Sequence record: OR769032.1
DNA length: 64,000 nt
Reading direction: 5' to 3' (one strand)
Source of the DNA: Escherichia phage JoYop
This document shows positions 37,810 through 43,792 of this stretch, piece by piece (positions within the stretch are counted from its first letter, which is position 1; each line of letters starts with the position of its first letter). The translations under genes were made by a program, and so were the position numbers. The notes under the pieces were generated by a model. That model saw only the letters and a program-made list of their open reading frames with translations, had not been told where the DNA came from and made no database searches.

Positions 37810-38073
37810 TTATTTCATATTATTGAAATATTCTTCTGCGATTTCGTCGTTATCATGGTAAACTTTAGAAGACAGCTTAACATAACCTTCAGCAGTGAAC
37901 ATGTTAATCACAACCTTTACAGTATACCACTGACCGTCTTCATTACCCATTACTGCATAGGTTTCAAACATCGGATGGTCAGGACCGATAACTTTAATAT
38001 CATTCACCGTACGACCAAAATCTTCTGAAACACATTTCATAAAGAAGTTGAACAGTTCACCGTAATTATCCAT
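37810..38073 (-). CDS. hypothetical protein
   Basis: Track start TTG; ATG at 38073 (MDNYGELFNFF...). Confidence 0.45.
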   Translation of the reverse strand: MDNYGELFNFFMKCVSEDFGRTVNDIKVIGPDHPMFETYAVMGNEDGQWYTVKVVINMFTAEGYVKLSSKVYHDNDEIAEEYFNNMK

Positions 38074-38116
38074 TTCGTTCTCCAAGTTGTTTTCTGTATC
38101 AGTAGTTGATAGTTGT

Positions 38117-38146
38117 ATAGTACCACAGAAGAACAGGGATGTAAAC
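38117..38146 (-). promoter_or_regulatory. T4-type early promoter
   Basis: Minus strand GTTTACA-(18 nt)-TGG-TACTAT-ACAACTATCAAC with A/T-rich upstream element. Confidence 0.55.
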
Positions 38147-38284
38147 AGTTTTGTGAAAAAATTTTTAAAAAGTTTTGGGGAATTCTAGGGCAGGGAGGGG
38201 CAATTAAAGGATAGGATAATATATTATAAAGGGTAGAAACTAAATGATGCCTAGAGAGGCCCGGAAAGGCCTAGATATCAAAAA

Positions 38285-38304
38285 CCCCAACCTTTCGGCT
38301 GAGG
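38285..38304 (-). terminator. intrinsic terminator after internal-protein-like gene
   Basis: CCTCAGCC-GAAA-GGTTGGGG hairpin then TTTTTG on minus strand; a second GGCC...GGCC hairpin follows. Confidence 0.5.
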
Positions 38305-38313
38305 CTAAGAATG

Positions 38314-38787
38314 TTATTTGATTTGTTTAGCAGACCAAATGCGGTCTTTAATAATTTTTTGGATGTCTTCAACATACTCAAGAGAGTGAACATGCGGGTT
38401 ATCTTTGAAACTATAAGCACGAGCTAGCTTTTGGCCTTCAGTTTTGATTACTAAAAGCTCTTTAAGGATAGCTTCATATTTGGAAATAATTCCTTTAACA
38501 ATATTTTTCTCTTGTGCGACTTTAGGATCTGCTTTAGGAGCAGGTTTACCTGAAGCTTTTGCAAAAGCAGCTCCAGTAGCAACTAAACTTTTCCAAGCCA
38601 TACTAACTGCATTTCCCGTAAATCCTTCTGCTTTCATATCGCGAGCAAATTGGAATCGCGATTCATCAGAAGCATCTTTATAGGAATATTTACCCGCGGC
38701 AATGGCAGCTTTTGCGACAGCTTGAATTTCGGTGCTAGATGCTTCATTTAACACCGCTTCATTTAAAAATTGAGCATATGATTTCAT
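38314..38787 (-). CDS. additional internal-protein-like gene with CTS
   Basis: 157 aa starting MKSYAQFLNEAVLNEA; Ala/Lys-rich. Confidence 0.5.
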   Translation of the reverse strand: MKSYAQFLNEAVLNEASSTEIQAVAKAAIAAGKYSYKDASDESRFQFARDMKAEGFTGNAVSMAWKSLVATGAAFAKASGKPAPKADPKVAQEKNIVKGIISKYEAILKELLVIKTEGQKLARAYSFKDNPHVHSLEYVEDIQKIIKDRIWSAKQIK

Positions 38788-38838
38788 CTTATTTCCTGTT
38801 TTAATTCGGGGTTTTAATATACTTATTTATACTAAAAA

Positions 38839-38860
38839 GCCCCAACCTTTCGGTTGGGGC
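38839..38860 (-). terminator. intrinsic terminator closing the tRNA/stable RNA transcription unit
   Basis: GCCCCAACC-GAAA-GGTTGGGGC followed by TTTTTAG on minus strand. Confidence 0.6.
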
Positions 38861-38864
38861 TAAG

Positions 38865-39190
38865 CCTTGCGGCAACCTTGTCGGGGTTCCACCTGCTAAG
38901 GCAAGTGTTTGTACGAAACGCCGGGATTCGAACCCGGTTATCAAGCAGTTGACGCTACTCAATATTTTTAAAAGGCCATATCTCGACCATATCCGAACGT
39001 TCCGTCAAAAACGCTACTCGGCTTACGGCAAAGATATTTCCTCGAATCGATAATTCGGTGCGCCGTTTCTGCTGTGATATAAGGGAACATTAACAGATCG
39101 TAAAGATTTGTTAATGCCGGTCCTTAAACAGGGAGCATCAGTCCGACGACTTACCGGTAGCGACCCGGTTTCTTAATATTCTTTTAAAGC
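38865..39190 (-). ncRNA. candidate structured stable RNA(s), tRNA-like (cf. T4 rnaC/rnaD position)
   Basis: 326-bp ORF-free region downstream of tRNA-Arg; contains a tRNA T-arm-like CCGGG-TTCGAAT-CCCGG element and a distant complementary acceptor-like segment about 150 nt apart. Confidence 0.3.
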
Positions 39191-39196
39191 ATCAAT

Positions 39197-39523
39197 TTAT
39201 TCACAGCGTTTACGCCATAAATCAATTGCTTCATAAGCGGATTCAGCATTTCGAATTAGCCGGCATTTATGTAAAGACTTATGATTTTGATATTGTGTAG
39301 ATAATGGAATTGTATCTAAAAGGTCTTTACGATCAAAGTATTCGTAACCATCTAAACCAAATGAACGATTTTTGAGAAATTGCCAATGGCCAAATTCATT
39401 TTCAACATAAACATAATCTGCATGCTGATAAAGCAAATTAATTACGCGTTCAGAAATAACAGTATCATTATGATTAAAATAAAATGTTAAATCATGAACT
39501 ACTAAATAAACATTACCTTTCAT
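39197..39523 (-). CDS. hypothetical protein between tRNA-Arg and the stable-RNA region
   Basis: ATG at 39523 with GAGGAAAAT SD; the longer track ORF overlaps tRNA-Arg. Confidence 0.4.
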   Translation of the reverse strand: MKGNVYLVVHDLTFYFNHNDTVISERVINLLYQHADYVYVENEFGHWQFLKNRSFGLDGYEYFDRKDLLDTIPLSTQYQNHKSLHKCRLIRNAESAYEAIDLWRKRCE

Positions 39524-39541
39524 ATTTTCCTCACTTATAAT

Positions 39542-39618
<77 letters not shown>

Positions 39619-39622
39619 TATT

Positions 39623-39697
39623 TGGCGGACATGCATGGATTCGAACCATGGACCAATTGATTAACAGTCAACTGCTCTACCACTGAGCTACACATCC
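39623..39697 (-). tRNA. tRNA-Asn (anticodon GUU)
   Basis: Hand-folded: GGATGTG acceptor, D-arm GCTCAGTGGTAGAGC, anticodon loop CUGUUAA, T-loop TTCGAAT, CCA encoded. Confidence 0.65.
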
Positions 39698-39701
39698 AAA
39701 T

Positions 39702-39788
39702 TGGTGGGGAGTGATGGAGTCGAACCACCCGAGTCGCAATGACAATGGATTTACAGTCCACACCGCTACCTCTACGGGATAACTCCCC
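39702..39788 (-). tRNA. tRNA-Tyr (anticodon GUA), long variable arm
   Basis: 87 nt; anticodon stem-loop GTGGA-CUGUAAA-TCCAT; variable arm resembles bacterial tRNA-Tyr; D-arm fold less clean. Confidence 0.55.
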
Positions 39789-39801
39789 TTAATTCTTAAT
39801 T

Positions 39802-39876
39802 TGGTGGCCCTGGGTGGAATTGAACCACCATCTGGCGATTATGAGTCGCTTGCTTGAACCTTCCAGCTACAGGGCC
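39802..39876 (-). tRNA. tRNA with CAU anticodon (Ile2/lysidine-type or Met)
   Basis: Hand-folded: acceptor GGCCCTG, anticodon loop CUCAUAA; T4 has a CAU tRNA read as Ile. Confidence 0.6.
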
Positions 39877-39877
39877 T

Positions 39878-39953
39878 TGGTGCTGATTGACGGAATCGAA
39901 CCGCCGACCTTCTCATTACAAGTGAGTTGCTCTACCTACTGAGCTAAATCAGC
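39878..39953 (-). tRNA. tRNA-Thr (anticodon UGU)
   Basis: Hand-folded: D-arm GCTCAGTAGGTAGAGC, anticodon loop CUUGUAA. Confidence 0.65.
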
Positions 39954-39958
39954 AAAAC

Positions 39959-40048
39959 TGGCGGAGGCGATAGGATTTGAACCTATGAGTCGCCGGAGCG
40001 ACTGCCGGTTTTCAAGACCGGTGCATTAAACCACTCTGCCACGCCTCC
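39959..40048 (-). tRNA. tRNA-Ser (anticodon UGA), long variable arm
   Basis: 90 nt; anticodon stem-loop CCGGT-CUUGAAA-ACCGG. Confidence 0.65.
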
Positions 40049-40050
40049 AG

Positions 40051-40124
40051 TCTCCATACAAGGATTTGAACCTTGGACCTCCTGATCCCAAATCAGGCGC
40101 TCTACCAAACTGAGCTACACGGAG
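40051..40124 (-). tRNA. tRNA-Pro (anticodon UGG)
   Basis: Hand-folded: anticodon stem-loop CCTGA-UUUGGGA-TCAGG; CCA not encoded. Confidence 0.65.
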
Positions 40125-40134
40125 TAAATTAAAT

Positions 40135-40208
<74 letters not shown>

Positions 40209-40213
40209 AAATT

Positions 40214-40300
40214 TGGTGCGAGAAGTGGGACTCGAACCCACAAGGAAATCATTCCGCAGCATTTTAAGTGCTGTGCCTTTACCAATTTGACCATTCTCGC
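40214..40300 (-). tRNA. tRNA-Leu (anticodon UAA), long variable arm
   Basis: 87 nt; anticodon stem-loop CAGCA-CUUAAAA-TGCTG; T-arm GTGGG-TTCGAGT-CCCAC. Confidence 0.65.
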
Positions 40301-40306
40301 GCTATA

Positions 40307-40915
40307 TTATTTATTACGTGAAAAAGACTGTTCTATCAATTCTGGACACTTTCGTTCTATCCATTTTCTAGCTTTTTGTGGGCTTATACCTATTATTTTA
40401 GCAGCTTTACTAACCCATCCAAATTTAGAATAATCGATTTTAACTAATTCTTCGTAAATTTCATCAGTTAAAATCTTTTCATTAATATTTACCAGTAAAT
40501 GATATAATTTATTATCATTAGCAATTTTAATGAATCTTTTATAGTTTCCGCCTTTACTTAAACCTAATGAAGTAATTGCAGATGATATAGTAGCCGAATT
40601 TAATAGTGCGTTTAAAATTTCTTCATCACTAACATTATAACGCTTTTTATTATTTTTAATATTTTTACCAGCAAAAGTATCAGTTTGCGAATGGCAATTT
40701 GGACATAATAATCTTAAATTTGATTTAAGATGATTTTTGTTATTTCCATCAATATGATCTAATTGCAGAACAATATGCTTATTTTGCCATTTTGAAATTT
40801 TACAAATTGCACACTCATATGGAAAAATATTTTCTTTTATTATTTTGTCTTTCAGCTTTCCTGTACTAAAATTTGGATGTTTTCCTTCAAAAATTTCAGC
40901 TAATTTAGTATCCAT
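40307..40915 (-). CDS. HNH family homing endonuclease, free-standing, abutting the tRNA cluster
   Basis: HNH core CAICK...LQLDHIDGNNKNHLKSNLRLLCPNCHSQTD; C-terminal helix-turn-helix-like region; track start TTG, ATG at 40915. Confidence 0.65.
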   Translation of the reverse strand: MDTKLAEIFEGKHPNFSTGKLKDKIIKENIFPYECAICKISKWQNKHIVLQLDHIDGNNKNHLKSNLRLLCPNCHSQTDTFAGKNIKNNKKRYNVSDEEILNALLNSATISSAITSLGLSKGGNYKRFIKIANDNKLYHLLVNINEKILTDEIYEELVKIDYSKFGWVSKAAKIIGISPQKARKWIERKCPELIEQSFSRNK

Positions 40916-41025
40916 AATATAATTCCCAATTATTAACAAAGGCTCTCAAGCAAGAACCCTTGATGATAGAGGGTATTAATCAGTGCGATATGAGTTAATA
41001 ATAACAAATAATTCTTAAAGCATAT

Positions 41026-41313
41026 TTACCATTTATGCCGATACGTATTTACGATACATTCAAGACCCAAAGGATTCTTGAAAACATCATATTCAAGAGG
41101 ACCTTTTTCTGTTTCAATAAAGAAATCAAAATTTACTATATTAAATTTACGGTCTTCCTTTACTAATTTAACTTGAGAAGATGAACGGTCAATGTAAACC
41201 TTTTCAACTTCAAAACATGTTAAAATGCCATAATCATCAATCAAGGCTTTAGCTGCTTCTTGATCATATTTATATCCATTTTCAACGGATGATACTTTCG
41301 CATAAAGAATCAT
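41026..41313 (-). CDS. hypothetical protein
   Basis: 95-aa ORF, ATG start. Confidence 0.45.
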   Translation of the reverse strand: MILYAKVSSVENGYKYDQEAAKALIDDYGILTCFEVEKVYIDRSSSQVKLVKEDRKFNIVNFDFFIETEKGPLEYDVFKNPLGLECIVNTYRHKW

Positions 41314-41315
41314 TA

Positions 41316-41696
41316 TCAGCCTTCATCAACAATAGTGTGCGTATTGGCATTTACAATTTGCCACCAATCAAAGCGATTAGAACCATACATTGGTTTGTTC
41401 TCATTTTCTTTAATGATATCACGGAGTTCATCTTCGGTAGCAGCTTTCGCGATTAAATCGGCATATCCACCACGAGGATAATAATTATCACCTGCAAAAA
41501 GTAAAAAATTTGGTGTAATATTATTAAACTCTTCAAGAGTAATAACTGTTCCACCAGGTTGAACAATTTCTACATATTTATATCCTAATTTTTGAGCAGC
41601 ATCTACTGCTTCAAGCAGGGTATCATGGGCCCATCCAATTTGGCAATCTGGCTTTTCAGATGGATTAGCCTGATAATCCGCGTACACTTTATACAT
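41316..41696 (-). CDS. hypothetical protein
   Basis: Track start TTG; ATG at 41696 with AAGGTGAA SD. Confidence 0.45.
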   Translation of the reverse strand: MYKVYADYQANPSEKPDCQIGWAHDTLLEAVDAAQKLGYKYVEIVQPGGTVITLEEFNNITPNFLLFAGDNYYPRGGYADLIAKAATEDELRDIIKENENKPMYGSNRFDWWQIVNANTHTIVDEG

Positions 41697-41697
41697 T

Positions 41698-41883
41698 CTA
41701 TTCACCTTTAGAAATTTTATCCATAACAATAGCGATTAAACCAATTAAAAATGCTACTACAAGTGAAAAAACATTTTCTGCTGTAGTTAATAATCCGCAT
41801 ATAAATCCAACAAACATTGAAAAACTAAAAGCAGAAGCAGAAATTGCAATAGCAACATTTCGAATTAATTCACAACGTTTCAT
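41698..41883 (-). CDS. small membrane protein
   Basis: 61 aa, largely hydrophobic (AIAISASAFSFSMFVGFICGLL...VVAFLIGLIAIV). Confidence 0.4.
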   Translation of the reverse strand: MKRCELIRNVAIAISASAFSFSMFVGFICGLLTTAENVFSLVVAFLIGLIAIVMDKISKGE

Positions 41884-41911
41884 TTTATTCTCCTCGGTAG
41901 TTGATAGGGTA

Positions 41912-41941
41912 ATAGTATCACTACCCCATCTAAAAGTAAAC
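41912..41941 (-). promoter_or_regulatory. T4-type early promoter
   Basis: Minus strand GTTTACT-(18 nt)-TGA-TACTAT. Confidence 0.5.
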
Positions 41942-41951
41942 AGTTTATAAA

Positions 41952-42260
41952 CTATTTTATTCCGCGTGATGCAATTGTATTCTGTCGTTTAACACTAGTT
42001 TGTTTAAAGTCATGATTGTCGATTTGATCGGTACGAGCAACCCCGAATGATGATTTAATCTTAGCTTTAGATCCTTTAGTTATAGAAATAAACATCTCGG
42101 AAGCCCCTTTCTTAAAGTCAGAAGCGATTACTTCAACACCGTTCTTAGCAAGTGACCCCAGAATTGCCTCCGCATACTCATCGTCAAGACTAGCCTGAGT
42201 ATTAATAACGAATGTCTTTGGTGCAACTGCTTCATTGATAAATTCTTTGAAAGTTTTCAT
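41952..42260 (-). CDS. ipI: Internal protein I-like (capsid-targeted)
   Basis: 102 aa starting MKTFKEFINEAVAPK; located just upstream of 57B as T4 ipI. Confidence 0.6.
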   Translation of the reverse strand: MKTFKEFINEAVAPKTFVINTQASLDDEYAEAILGSLAKNGVEVIASDFKKGASEMFISITKGSKAKIKSSFGVARTDQIDNHDFKQTSVKRQNTIASRGIK

Positions 42261-43030: not shown

Positions 43031-43743
43031 TATAGTACCTTTAGTGTATTTTTAATTTTAGAAAAAAGTTCTTCAAGAGAACCATCGTTTGTAATTACTA
43101 AATCGCCATCACGAATTGGCAATCCAGCTTCTGTAATATGTGTATCATTGGATTTTTGACCAGGACGAACTACATGAATTACTGTAGCACCCATCGCCCT
43201 AGCCGCATCCATTTCATGATCTTGACGAGTATCAGGAACGATATAATAATCATAACCTGAGTTAAATTTATCAAGATAATCTAAAGCAAATAATTTTACC
43301 CAATACATGCGATCGAAGTTATTAACAATCAAATCCGTACCTAGGGCTTGCATCAGACGACGGACTGACCATTGATCTTCAATAGTATTTATAACGTCAG
43401 CAATCTTGTTAAATGCTACGAAATTAACTGCGTCATCAAAAACAAACACACCTTTAATCGGGCTTTTACTATTAAGATAGCAAAATGCTTGTTCCATAAT
43501 CGTGATTACTTCTAATTTAGTCAGATTTAAATTAGTCTCACGATCATAGTCAATTCCTTCAAACTCTTTACGAGTTAAGCAAGGATAGCCAGTGTTTGCT
43601 GCAAATACACCCCATGCATAAGCTAATGCGTCCTTAATAGGACCAGCAAGTTGGTATTTAACTGCAGAATAATTGCTCATTATAAAATCAGCAGTAGTAT
43701 CTTTTCCACTGCGCTTTACACCGCTTAAAAAGATTAGTTTCAT
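43030..43743 (-). CDS. 1: Deoxynucleoside monophosphate kinase gp1
   Basis: From ATG at 43743: MKLIFLSGVKRSGKDTTADFIMSNYS... with P-loop GVKRSGKDT; recognised as T4 gp1. Confidence 0.9.
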
Positions 43744-43792
43744 GTGTTTCTCCTCAAATTTAATTAAGATTATAACACACAAAACTGAAGCA

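What the first reader, a model, noticed from the sequence alone, without database searches (positions are those of the whole stretch)
40307..40915. HNH homing endonuclease gene abutting tRNA-Leu at the head of the tRNA cluster
The ORF has a textbook HNH core (DHIDGNNKNHLKSNLRLLCPNCH) and a basic helix-turn-helix-like C-terminal half, and its stop lies about 7 nt from tRNA-Leu. T4 carries a GIY-YIG endonuclease (segB) within its tRNA region; here an HNH enzyme of a different family occupies the cluster edge where a tRNA-Gln would be expected. That is consistent with endonuclease-driven remodelling of the tRNA locus.
Basis: partly seen in the sequence, partly recalled or inferred. Interest (0 to 1): 0.45.

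Follow-up and report, generated by a model that had tools for sequence, protein, structure and literature searches.

The report
HNH endonuclease gene replacing phage tRNA-Gln
In this T4-like phage a selfish-looking HNH nuclease gene sits exactly where related phages carry their glutamine tRNA gene; it is an ordinary kind of mobile element, but its relatives sit beside tRNA genes in many phages and bacteria.

Summary
Window 40307-40915 (minus strand) is an intact 202-aa ORF. It has a zinc-bound HNH core and a helical, HTH-like C-terminal half. Its stop codon lies 6 nt before tRNA-Leu.

The window is a Tequatrovirus. In T4 and about 460 other database records, tRNA-Gln occupies this spot. In 63 of about 525 records the HNH cassette replaces nt 10-71 of tRNA-Gln. 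The junctions were identical in all 9 carriers compared directly, which span several different tRNA-cluster backgrounds.

The gene is under strong purifying selection (pN/pS 0.06). It is the most AT-rich 600-nt stretch of the window. It shows no similarity to T4 MobA-E. Its closest characterised relative is T5 F-TflIV (35% identity), which also lies in a tRNA cluster.

Diverged homologues (58-68% identity) have replaced tRNA-Gln or tRNA-Asn in two other T4-like lineages. Among the 80 best relatives in viral contigs, 72 lie within 2 kb of tRNA genes. Among the 80 best in bacterial genomes, 69 do. The tRNA often starts flush with the stop codon and is mostly tRNA-Leu or tRNA-Gln.

Best reading: an uncharacterised free-standing homing endonuclease. 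It is a new member of a known kind. Cleavage activity and homing are inferred, not shown.

The parts
40307..40915 (-). HNH endonuclease gene, 202 aa, free-standing and F-TflIV-like
   Evidence: ORF. PHROG 14736, E = 5e-124. 100% identical protein in many Tequatrovirus records. pN/pS 0.06 among 9 carriers. GC 25.8%, the lowest of all 600-nt windows in the 64-kb window.
40685..40819 (-). HNH catalytic core with zinc ligands, residues 33-77 (C35, C38, D53-H54, N66, C71, C74, H75)
40331..40627 (-). Helical C-terminal half with two HTH-like modules, residues 97-195; presumed DNA-binding domain
   Evidence: Helices H97-195 at high pLDDT. Weak Pfam HTH_29, P22_Cro and HTH_17 hits at 164-192. Conserved across full-length homologues. 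The last module aligns with the C-terminus of T5 F-TflIV and with the SegB-like GIY-YIG protein of CM8/AR1.
40920..40928 (-). Remnant of the first 9 nt of tRNA-Gln (TGGGAATTA). Its GGGA lies 8-9 nt before the ATG and may serve as the Shine-Dalgarno sequence.
   Evidence: Alignment with T4. Position 8 of the remnant is T or C among carriers but invariant T in all 10 genomes with tRNA-Gln. The Shine-Dalgarno role is inferred from spacing only.
40301..40303 (-). Right junction: AGC shared with T4 (last 2 nt of tRNA-Gln plus the 1-nt spacer before tRNA-Leu)
   Evidence: It varies (AAC, AGA) in some carriers and never in non-carriers.
40998..41022 (-). T4 middle-promoter-like site (MotA box TGCTTTA, 12 nt, TATTAT), just after the trna.2 stop and 83 nt before the HNH ATG
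   Evidence: Pattern search gave 18 matches in the window against 2.5 expected, 13 of 18 on the minus strand. The sequence is conserved upstream of tRNA-Gln in T4. Function is inferred.
40214..40300 (-). tRNA-Leu(UAA), directly downstream of the HNH stop
   Evidence: ARAGORN and Rfam. 98-100% identical in carriers and non-carriers.
39542..40208 (-). Rest of the tRNA cluster: Gly, Pro, Ser, Thr, CAU (Met/Ile2), Tyr, Asn, Arg. This is the T2-type arrangement without segB.
   Evidence: compare T2 and RB3.
41026..41313 (-). trna.2 homologue, the upstream neighbour (left homology arm)
   Evidence: ORF. 92-98% nucleotide identity to T4 and other Tequatroviruses. T4 annotation.

Best explanation
The ORF is a free-standing homing endonuclease gene of the F-TflIV-like HNH lineage. 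It entered the tRNA cluster of an ancestral Tequatrovirus once, and that event destroyed tRNA-Gln.

Proposed mechanism:
1. The gene is transcribed from the MotA-dependent middle promoter of the tRNA cluster, as the first cistron of the tRNA precursor.
2. RNase P cleavage at the 5' end of tRNA-Leu would end the mRNA 6 nt after the stop codon.
3. The protein binds DNA through its C-terminal HTH modules. Its zinc-stabilised HNH domain nicks or cuts the allele that lacks the gene, most likely at or near the tRNA-Gln / tRNA-Leu junction. That site no longer exists in its own genome.
4. During mixed infection the break is repaired from the HNH-bearing genome, using the nearly identical flanks (the trna.2 intergenic region and tRNA-Leu/Gly) as homology arms. 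The recipient converts from tRNA-Gln to HNH.

Shown: the gene, its intact catalytic residues, purifying selection, the precise replacement, the polymorphism, the multiple backgrounds, and relatives at tRNA sites elsewhere.

Inferred: nuclease activity, the target site, the expression route, and super-Mendelian inheritance.
For: - The replacement of tRNA-Gln nt 10-71 is precise and leaves remnants, which fixes the direction of the event.
- 63 of about 525 records carry the gene. All sampled non-carriers have the 290-318-nt short allele, annotated as tRNA-Gln wherever the record is annotated.
- All 9 carriers compared have the same 619-nt interval, yet they differ in tRNA-cluster architecture (T2-type, +His, segB-type, SegB-like in place of tRNA-Pro) and in upstream gene.
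- Selection: 15 synonymous against 6 nonsynonymous segregating sites as scored by the script (about 14 and 5 after excluding two sites caused only by N bases in phiD1). All changes in residues 1-88 are synonymous. pN/pS is 0.06. pS is 0.044, against 0.07-0.10 in flanking genes.
- Composition: GC 25.8% against 35.0 +/- 3.1% for the window.
- T5 F-TflIV, cited in the literature as a site-specific endonuclease encoded in the T5 tRNA region, is 35% identical across both the HNH domain and the C-terminal module (PMC2330249, PMC10644984).
- Homologues of 58-68% identity replace tRNA-Gln in Roskildevirus-like contigs and tRNA-Asn in a Marfavirus-like contig.
- Relatives are strongly associated with tRNA genes.
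- SegB sets the precedent for homing in this very cluster (PMC2330249). [quoted passage not shown]
Against: - No cleavage or inheritance data exist for this protein.
- No co-conversion tract or carrier-specific SNP is detectable in the flanks. The flanks are too conserved to give the test any power.
- The gene is at only about 12% frequency. Its synonymous diversity is only about half that of its neighbours, so a sweep is not obvious.
- T4-like phages recombine so freely that a neutral insertion could also end up on many backgrounds.
- If the target lay in tRNA-Leu itself, the carrier would cut itself, so the target proposal is only a guess.
Confidence: 0.65

Rival explanations
1. Passive passenger. 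The gene arrived once by illegitimate recombination. It has since spread only by ordinary homologous recombination and hitch-hiking. The endonuclease is no longer (or never was) able to drive its own inheritance in Tequatroviruses.
For: No co-conversion signal. Modest frequency of 12%. pS only about two-fold lower than the flanks. Internal SNP patterns show that the gene itself recombines like any other (ACG-C40 shares variants with two groups).
Against: pN/pS is 0.06, with every change in the catalytic half synonymous. A useless ORF should decay, and no truncated or frameshifted copy was seen among the 63 records. The same lineage has independently taken tRNA sites in two other genera.
Confidence: 0.17
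2. A domesticated or phage-beneficial function rather than selfish homing. Possibilities include exclusion of competing phages by cutting their tRNA clusters without gene conversion, a DNA-binding regulatory role at tRNA genes, or an activity on tRNA precursors.
For: Strong purifying selection. Relatives sit immediately 5' of single chromosomal tRNA-Leu or tRNA-Gln genes in bacteria, between housekeeping genes, where classical homing is less obvious. The gene is co-transcribed with tRNAs (inferred).
Against: The gene is absent from 88% of close relatives, so it is not needed. Acquiring it cost a tRNA gene. The HTH-plus-HNH architecture is that of DNA endonucleases. No RNA-binding or RNase signature was found.
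Confidence: 0.13
3. Not a functional gene: a chance ORF or a decaying pseudogene in an AT-rich intergenic insert.
For: Pfam HNH is below its cut-off. There is no canonical Shine-Dalgarno sequence (sequence reading).
Against: Full-length PHROG match at 5e-124. More than 5,500 relatives with invariant catalytic and zinc residues. A confident fold. Synonymous-biased variation.
Confidence: 0.03

Closest known systems
F-TflIV (hegA, T5.075) of phage T5, an H-N-H site-specific endonuclease encoded in the T5 tRNA gene region
   Same: 35% identity over 170 residues (E about 1e-21), covering the HNH/zinc core and the C-terminal HTH module. Both genes lie inside a tRNA cluster; hegA starts 24 nt after tRNA-Ile2. 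Both are free-standing.
   Different: F-TflIV has an extra N-terminal LuxR/GerE-type HTH and lacks the middle HTH module. It is in a siphovirus of another family. It is followed by ORFs, not by a tRNA. Its biochemistry could not be read here because Akulenko et al. 2004 is not in the library.
SegB of phage T4, a GIY-YIG homing endonuclease in the same tRNA cluster
   Same: Same locus and same apparent life-style. It is a free-standing endonuclease gene whose presence alternates with tRNA genes. Its ORF abuts a tRNA, so tRNA processing cuts the mRNA. Homing and marker exclusion are demonstrated for SegB (PMC2330249).
   Different: A different catalytic family with no sequence similarity. [quoted passage not shown] SegB is experimentally characterised; this protein is not.
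T4 MobA-MobE, free-standing HNH endonucleases
   Same: The same superfamily in the published His-Me finger classification (PMC5714182), and the same category of free-standing HNH genes in T-even phages (PMC2988022).
   Different: No detectable pairwise similarity: BLASTP E is about 0.1 or higher, and phmmer E values run from 0.05 (MobE) to 0.83 against a 12-sequence set. The motif style differs (HHIIPR..GG.DD..NLV in the Mob proteins) and so do the loci.
HNH endonucleases reported in mycobacteriophage tRNA clusters
   Same: The general idea that HNH genes inside phage tRNA arrays generate diversity in the tRNA repertoire is already in the literature (PMC6409571, discussion).
   Different: No sequence comparison with those proteins was made here. 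That literature does not describe this Tequatrovirus gene or the tRNA-Gln replacement.

Membership tests
HNH / His-Me finger (beta-beta-alpha-metal) nuclease superfamily | Catalytic His on the first strand (DH), conserved Asn, and a terminal His/Asn metal ligand | tested here: met
   D53-H54, N66 and H75 are present. H54, N66 and H75 are invariant and D53 is nearly invariant in 40 homologues.
HNH / His-Me finger (beta-beta-alpha-metal) nuclease superfamily | Two CxxC pairs forming the structural zinc site | tested here: met
   C35, C38, C71 and C74 are invariant.
HNH / His-Me finger (beta-beta-alpha-metal) nuclease superfamily | beta-beta-alpha fold resembling solved HNH domains | tested here: met
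HNH / His-Me finger (beta-beta-alpha-metal) nuclease superfamily | Score above the Pfam PF01844 gathering threshold | tested here: not met
   17.3 bits against 21.4. Homologues P0003 and P0004 and the bacterial relatives do carry PF01844 hits.
F-TflIV-like HNH endonucleases (T5 hegA lineage) | Significant sequence similarity extending beyond the HNH core | tested here: met
   35% identity over residues 16-184, E 1e-21 to 2e-22. GenBank annotators reached the same conclusion.
F-TflIV-like HNH endonucleases (T5 hegA lineage) | Site-specific endonuclease activity | not testable with these tools
   Needs purified protein and substrate mapping.
Free-standing homing endonuclease genes (functional class) | Presence/absence polymorphism at one identical site among close relatives | tested here: met
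   63 of about 525 records. Junctions identical in 9 of 9 carriers, against 10 of 10 non-carriers with the short allele.
Free-standing homing endonuclease genes (functional class) | Own ORF in an intergenic position, with a composition foreign to the host genome | tested here: met
   GC 25.8%, the lowest 600-nt window of the 64 kb.
Free-standing homing endonuclease genes (functional class) | Co-conversion of flanking markers with the endonuclease gene | tested here: inconclusive
   There are no carrier-specific SNPs in 130 nt upstream or 183 nt downstream, but the flanks are 98-100% identical in all genomes, so the test has no power.
Free-standing homing endonuclease genes (functional class) | Cleavage of the allele lacking the gene, and endonuclease-dependent super-Mendelian inheritance | not testable with these tools
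   Requires in vitro cleavage assays and mixed-infection crosses.
T4 Mob family (MobA-E) | Sequence similarity to MobA-E | tested here: not met
   BLASTP E is about 0.1 or higher. phmmer E values run from 0.05 (MobE) to 0.83 against a 12-sequence set.
Seg family (GIY-YIG) | GIY-YIG catalytic domain | tested here: not met
   No similarity to SegB. Only a 24-residue C-terminal HTH motif is shared with the SegB-like protein of CM8/AR1.

The most novel reading that the evidence does not exclude
The window gene may be one visible member of a large, unnamed clade of HTH-plus-HNH endonuclease genes whose specific niche is the 5' flank of tRNA genes, above all tRNA-Leu and tRNA-Gln. The clade is found in diverse phages and also in bacterial chromosomes.

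On this reading the enzymes recognise tRNA-gene DNA, insert flush against the tRNA 5' end, use the tRNA promoter, and are separated from the tRNA by RNase P. They would drive gain, loss and exchange of tRNA genes, and so be a general engine of tRNA-array evolution.

The association itself is observed here. The target specificity and mobility are not.
Probability: 0.35. Interest if true: 0.65.

Novelty: new member of a known kind. Interest (0 to 1): 0.42.

Why it matters
Free-standing homing endonucleases are a main source of mosaicism and marker exclusion in T4-like phages. SegB already showed that they reshape the tRNA cluster. This gene adds a second, unrelated endonuclease to that locus, with a clean natural experiment: tRNA-Gln or HNH, never both.

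Phage tRNAs are now known to help phages escape tRNA-targeting host defences. A selfish element that deletes or swaps tRNA genes could therefore change host range and fitness.

The carriers (ACG-C40, Ozark, CM8 and others) and non-carriers (T4, T2) are cultured phages, so cleavage mapping and mixed-infection crosses are immediately feasible.

Relatives abut tRNA-Leu and tRNA-Gln genes across phages and bacteria. If that reflects target specificity, it would define a new and widespread homing niche.

Tried and rejected
- IMG/VR search with the single protein found no close relative, and the trna.2 search gave only 6 loci. The comparative set was therefore taken from GenBank phages instead.
- The sigma-70 promoter/terminator scan was uninformative for a T4 middle promoter and found no terminator.
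- An RNA fold pairs the GGGA/AUG region with upstream leader sequence, but it is no better than shuffled sequences (z = -1.3). RBS sequestration is not claimed.
- I tested whether the tRNA-Gln next to the Marfavirus-like HNH (L022) carries immunity substitutions. The same allele (98.7% identical) occurs in Klebsiella phage PhiKpNIH-6, where the alignment stops at the 3' end of tRNA-Gln and the P0002 search found no Klebsiella hit, so that phage appears to lack the HNH. The idea is unsupported.
- Carrier-specific SNPs or co-conversion tracts: none found, and there was no power to find them.
- Comparison with MobA-E was negative.
- NCBIfam has no family for this protein; it gives only sub-threshold matches to the HNH modules of IscB and ZorE.
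- Rfam found no RNA family other than tRNAs in 38000-42000, or in the conserved 400-nt spacer of L022.
- The original F-Tfl paper (PubMed 15456135) is not held.
- Literature searches found no description of this Tequatrovirus gene or of the tRNA-flank pattern.

Full report
**1. What is there**

The window is part of a Tequatrovirus (T4-like) genome. A 3.5-kb query around the finding matches 1,154 phage records, mostly Escherichia and Shigella T4-like phages. The records that cover most of it are 93-97% identical.

On the minus strand the gene order is gene 1 (dNMP kinase), 57A, 57B, an internal-protein gene, trna.4, trna.3, trna.2, the ORF in question, and then nine tRNA genes. The ORF runs 40915 to 40307 and encodes 202 aa. 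Its TAA stop is at 40307-40309, and tRNA-Leu(UAA) begins at 40300, so 6 nt lie between them.

The protein matches PHROG 14736 'HNH endonuclease' over its whole length (E = 5e-124). Pfam HNH is below its threshold (17.3 against 21.4 bits).

In an alignment of 40 homologues C35, C38, H54, N66, C71, C74 and H75 are invariant and D53 is nearly invariant. These are the catalytic His, the Asn, the metal-binding His and two CxxC zinc pairs.

**2. The gene has replaced tRNA-Gln**

In T4 the order is trna.2, a 97-nt spacer, tRNA-Gln, 1 nt, tRNA-Leu.

Aligned with T4, the window is identical through the spacer and through the first 9 nt of tRNA-Gln (TGGGAATTA, window 40928-40920). After that come TATT, the 609-nt ORF and TAT. 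Identity resumes at AGC (the last 2 nt of tRNA-Gln plus the spacer base) and continues into tRNA-Leu. So 616 nt stand in place of tRNA-Gln nt 10-71.

The remnants show the direction of the event: a tRNA-Gln gene was there first and was destroyed. Neither ARAGORN (whole window) nor Rfam (38000-42000) finds a tRNA-Gln. The RefSeq annotation of the carrier Ozark lists ten tRNAs, all in this cluster and none of them Gln.

**3. It is an insertion polymorphism**

An 871-nt query spanning the gene and both junctions finds 525 records. Of these, 63 cover it fully at 98-99% identity. The other records match only the two flanks, over a 290-318-nt interval. That interval is annotated tRNA-Gln in every sampled record that carries annotation. 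The reciprocal T4 query gives the same picture. tblastn finds 58 records with a protein at least 99% identical and 5 at 95-99%. These counts are database records and include some GenBank/RefSeq duplicates.

I fetched 8 carriers and 10 non-carriers. The interval between the conserved anchor and tRNA-Leu is 619 nt in all 9 carriers (counting the window) and 65-66 nt in all non-carriers. A single ancestral insertion therefore explains all carriers.

The carriers nevertheless differ in their surroundings:
- The window has the T2-type cluster (Met/Ile2, Tyr, Asn, Arg).
- Ozark and ACG-C40 add tRNA-His.
- Killian and BYEP01 have segB, as T4 does.
- CM8 has a SegB-like gene in place of tRNA-Pro.
- The upstream neighbour is either trna.2 or an extra 516-nt ORF.

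Non-carriers show the same range of backgrounds.

**4. The gene is maintained by selection and looks foreign**

Among the 9 carriers the script scored 15 segregating sites as synonymous and 6 as nonsynonymous. Two of these sites are caused only by N bases in phiD1; excluding them leaves about 14 and 5. All changes in residues 1-88 are synonymous.

Mean pN/pS is 0.06. Mean pS is 0.044, against 0.07-0.10 for 57A, 57B, trna.4 and trna.2 in the same genomes. Nucleotide identity to the window is 98.7-99.7% for the HNH gene. For the protein-coding neighbours it is mostly about 92-98% (gene 1 94.9-97.4%; 57A, 57B and trna.4 up to 98-99%).

GC is 25.8% and GC3 is 13%. No other 600-nt window of the 64 kb is as low; the window mean is 35.0% with SD 3.1%.

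The flanks (the 130-nt spacer and tRNA-Leu/Gly) are 98-100% identical in carriers and non-carriers. No co-conversion signature can be seen, but none could be expected with so little variation.

The junction remnants do vary among carriers (TGGGAATTA or TGGGAATCA; AGC, AAC or AGA) and never among tRNA-Gln genomes. This fits loss of tRNA constraint.

**5. Relatives**

T4 MobA-E show no similarity to this protein.

The nearest characterised protein is T5 F-TflIV (hegA). It is 35% identical over 170 residues, including the last HTH module. Its gene lies 24 nt after tRNA-Ile2 in the T5 tRNA region. The literature held here cites it as one of three site-specific HNH endonucleases encoded in the T5 tRNA region (PMC2330249, PMC10644984). 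The original paper could not be read.

The protein database holds more than 5,500 relatives. The closest full-length ones come from other T4-like lineages, at the syntenic place after gene 1, 57A and 57B:
- **P0002 (68% identity), on a Marfavirus-like contig.** The order is tRNA-Met, tRNA-Gln, HNH. Klebsiella phage PWKp18 has tRNA-Met, tRNA-Gln, tRNA-Asn at that place. Here the cassette has replaced tRNA-Asn, with the right junction at the stop codon.
- **P0003 and P0004 (58% identity), on contigs related to Erwinia phage Cronus (Roskildevirus).** A 692-nt segment with the HNH gene replaces a 222-nt Cronus segment that contains tRNA-Gln. The last 20 nt of the ORF are flank sequence also present in Cronus.

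No cultured Klebsiella phage in the collection carries the gene.

**6. A family-wide link to tRNA genes (beyond the finding)**

A profile search of IMG/VR returned 570 relatives. Of the best 80 loci (gene plus or minus 2 kb), 72 contain tRNA genes, 474 in all. In 62 of those 72 loci every tRNA is on the same strand as the HNH gene. In 26 loci a tRNA starts within 30 nt of the stop codon or overlaps it. In 14 of those 26 it is tRNA-Leu. tRNA-Leu makes up 13.7% of all tRNAs in these loci, which gives a binomial p of 1.6e-6; this is not corrected for relatedness.

The same search of one genome per bacterial species returned 592 relatives. Of the best 80 loci, 69 have a tRNA within 2 kb. In 38 the tRNA lies within 30 nt of the stop, mostly tRNA-Leu (19) and tRNA-Gln (12).

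Two bacterial loci were inspected:
- In Microtetraspora fusca a 159-aa HTH-plus-HNH ORF lies between ABC-transporter permease genes and tRNA-Leu(UAG), and overlaps the tRNA by 9 nt.
- In an Eremiobacterota chromosome a 197-aa homologue precedes tRNA-Gln and tRNA-Glu.

NCBIfam has no model for these proteins.

The window case, in which tRNA-Gln is replaced and tRNA-Leu is abutted, fits this pattern closely. The literature held here mentions HNH genes in mycobacteriophage and T5 tRNA clusters and cites SegB as the model (PMC6409571). I found no description of this clade or of its tRNA-flank position.

**7. How it most likely works**

The spacer after trna.2 carries TGCTTTA, 12 nt, then TATTAT (40998-41022, minus strand). 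This matches the T4 middle-promoter pattern. The pattern occurs 18 times in the window against 2.5 expected, with 13 of the 18 on the minus strand. It is conserved upstream of tRNA-Gln in T4.

The HNH gene would therefore be the first cistron of the middle-mode tRNA transcript. The GGGA of the tRNA-Gln remnant lies 8-9 nt before the ATG and may act as the ribosome-binding site (sequence reading). RNase P cleavage at tRNA-Leu would leave a 6-nt 3' tail. The SegB paper proposed tRNA processing as a brake on segB expression (PMC2330249).

By analogy with SegB and with the nicking HNH enzymes MobA and MobE (PMC2988022), the protein would cut the tRNA-Gln allele of a co-infecting phage. Repair from the carrier genome would then copy the gene in. 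The target is most simply placed at the tRNA-Gln / tRNA-Leu junction, which the insertion destroyed.

All of this step is inference.

**8. Verdict**

This is a free-standing, F-TflIV-like HNH endonuclease gene that replaced tRNA-Gln and segregates in about 12% of Tequatrovirus records.

It is annotated in GenBank ('HNH endonuclease', 'similar to T5 TflIV') but uncharacterised. It is a new member of a known kind, and moderately interesting. The broader tRNA-flank pattern of its relatives is the part most worth following up.

Noticed in passing
L028-L107 (IMG/VR) and L111-L190 (bacterial genomes): Relatives of the HNH module lie beside tRNA genes in 72 of 80 viral loci and 69 of 80 bacterial loci. 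The tRNA often starts within 30 nt of the stop codon or overlaps it. It is mostly tRNA-Leu and, in bacteria, also tRNA-Gln. Some cases are in complete chromosomes, between housekeeping genes and a single tRNA.
   Followed up: partly
L009 4447-5055 (Shigella phage CM8) and L020 3851-4501 (phage AR1): A GIY-YIG 'SegB-like' gene replaces tRNA-Pro between tRNA-Gly and tRNA-Ser. Its first 117 residues are 83% identical to T4 SegB, but its C-terminus is different. A 24-residue HTH motif in that C-terminus is 50% identical to the C-terminus of the window HNH protein, which suggests that DNA-binding modules are shuffled among endonucleases resident in the tRNA cluster.
   Followed up: partly
L022 3911-4610 against L026 4204-4380: In a Marfavirus-like metagenomic contig a 68%-identical HNH gene replaces tRNA-Asn directly after tRNA-Gln. 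The adjacent tRNA-Gln allele differs from most Klebsiella phages by compensatory changes in the anticodon stem and T stem, but it also occurs in PhiKpNIH-6, which appears to lack the HNH gene.
   Followed up: yes
L022 4604-5010 and L026 4367-4781: A spacer of about 400 nt between the HNH gene (or tRNA-Asn) and the next tRNA-Met is highly conserved between the two phages over the stretch aligned (about 115 nt) and GC-rich for a phage. No ORF was called there in L022. It matches no Rfam family and may be an undescribed structured RNA.
   Followed up: partly
L023 3896-4830 against L027 2499-3033 (Erwinia phage Cronus): In Cronus-like contigs the HNH cassette replaces the segment holding tRNA-Gln, and tRNA-His is also missing. 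The last 20 nt of the HNH ORF (TKPM-stop) are flank sequence present in Cronus. The sequence just upstream of the ATG (TAATTGGAA) resembles the Tequatrovirus junction (TAATTGGGAA), a possible microhomology for the original insertion.
   Followed up: partly
L027 5485-5928 (Cronus): Cronus itself carries a shorter member of the family (147 aa, N-terminal HTH plus C-terminal HNH, 43% identical in the HNH module) wedged between tRNA-Leu(UAG) and tRNA-Tyr, 3 nt from each.
   Followed up: no
window, whole (for example 43265-43288, 43767-43792, 39410-39435, minus strand): The MotA-box plus -10 pattern TGCTTYA-N11-13-TANNNT occurs 18 times against 2.5 expected, with 13 of the 18 on the minus strand. 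This gives a quick map of likely middle promoters in the window.
   Followed up: no
window 39802-39876: ARAGORN calls the CAU-anticodon tRNA 'Met'. The RefSeq annotation of the Ozark homologue and the T4 annotation treat it as tRNA-Ile2 (lysidine-modified).
   Followed up: no
window 39197-39571: The longest ORF listed downstream of tRNA-Arg starts inside the tRNA (TTG at 39571). The real gene is probably the 351-nt T2-type ORF starting near 39523 (88-98% identical in CM8, ACG-C40, ES26, T2, AR1 and two IMG/VR loci). T4 lacks it.
   Followed up: no
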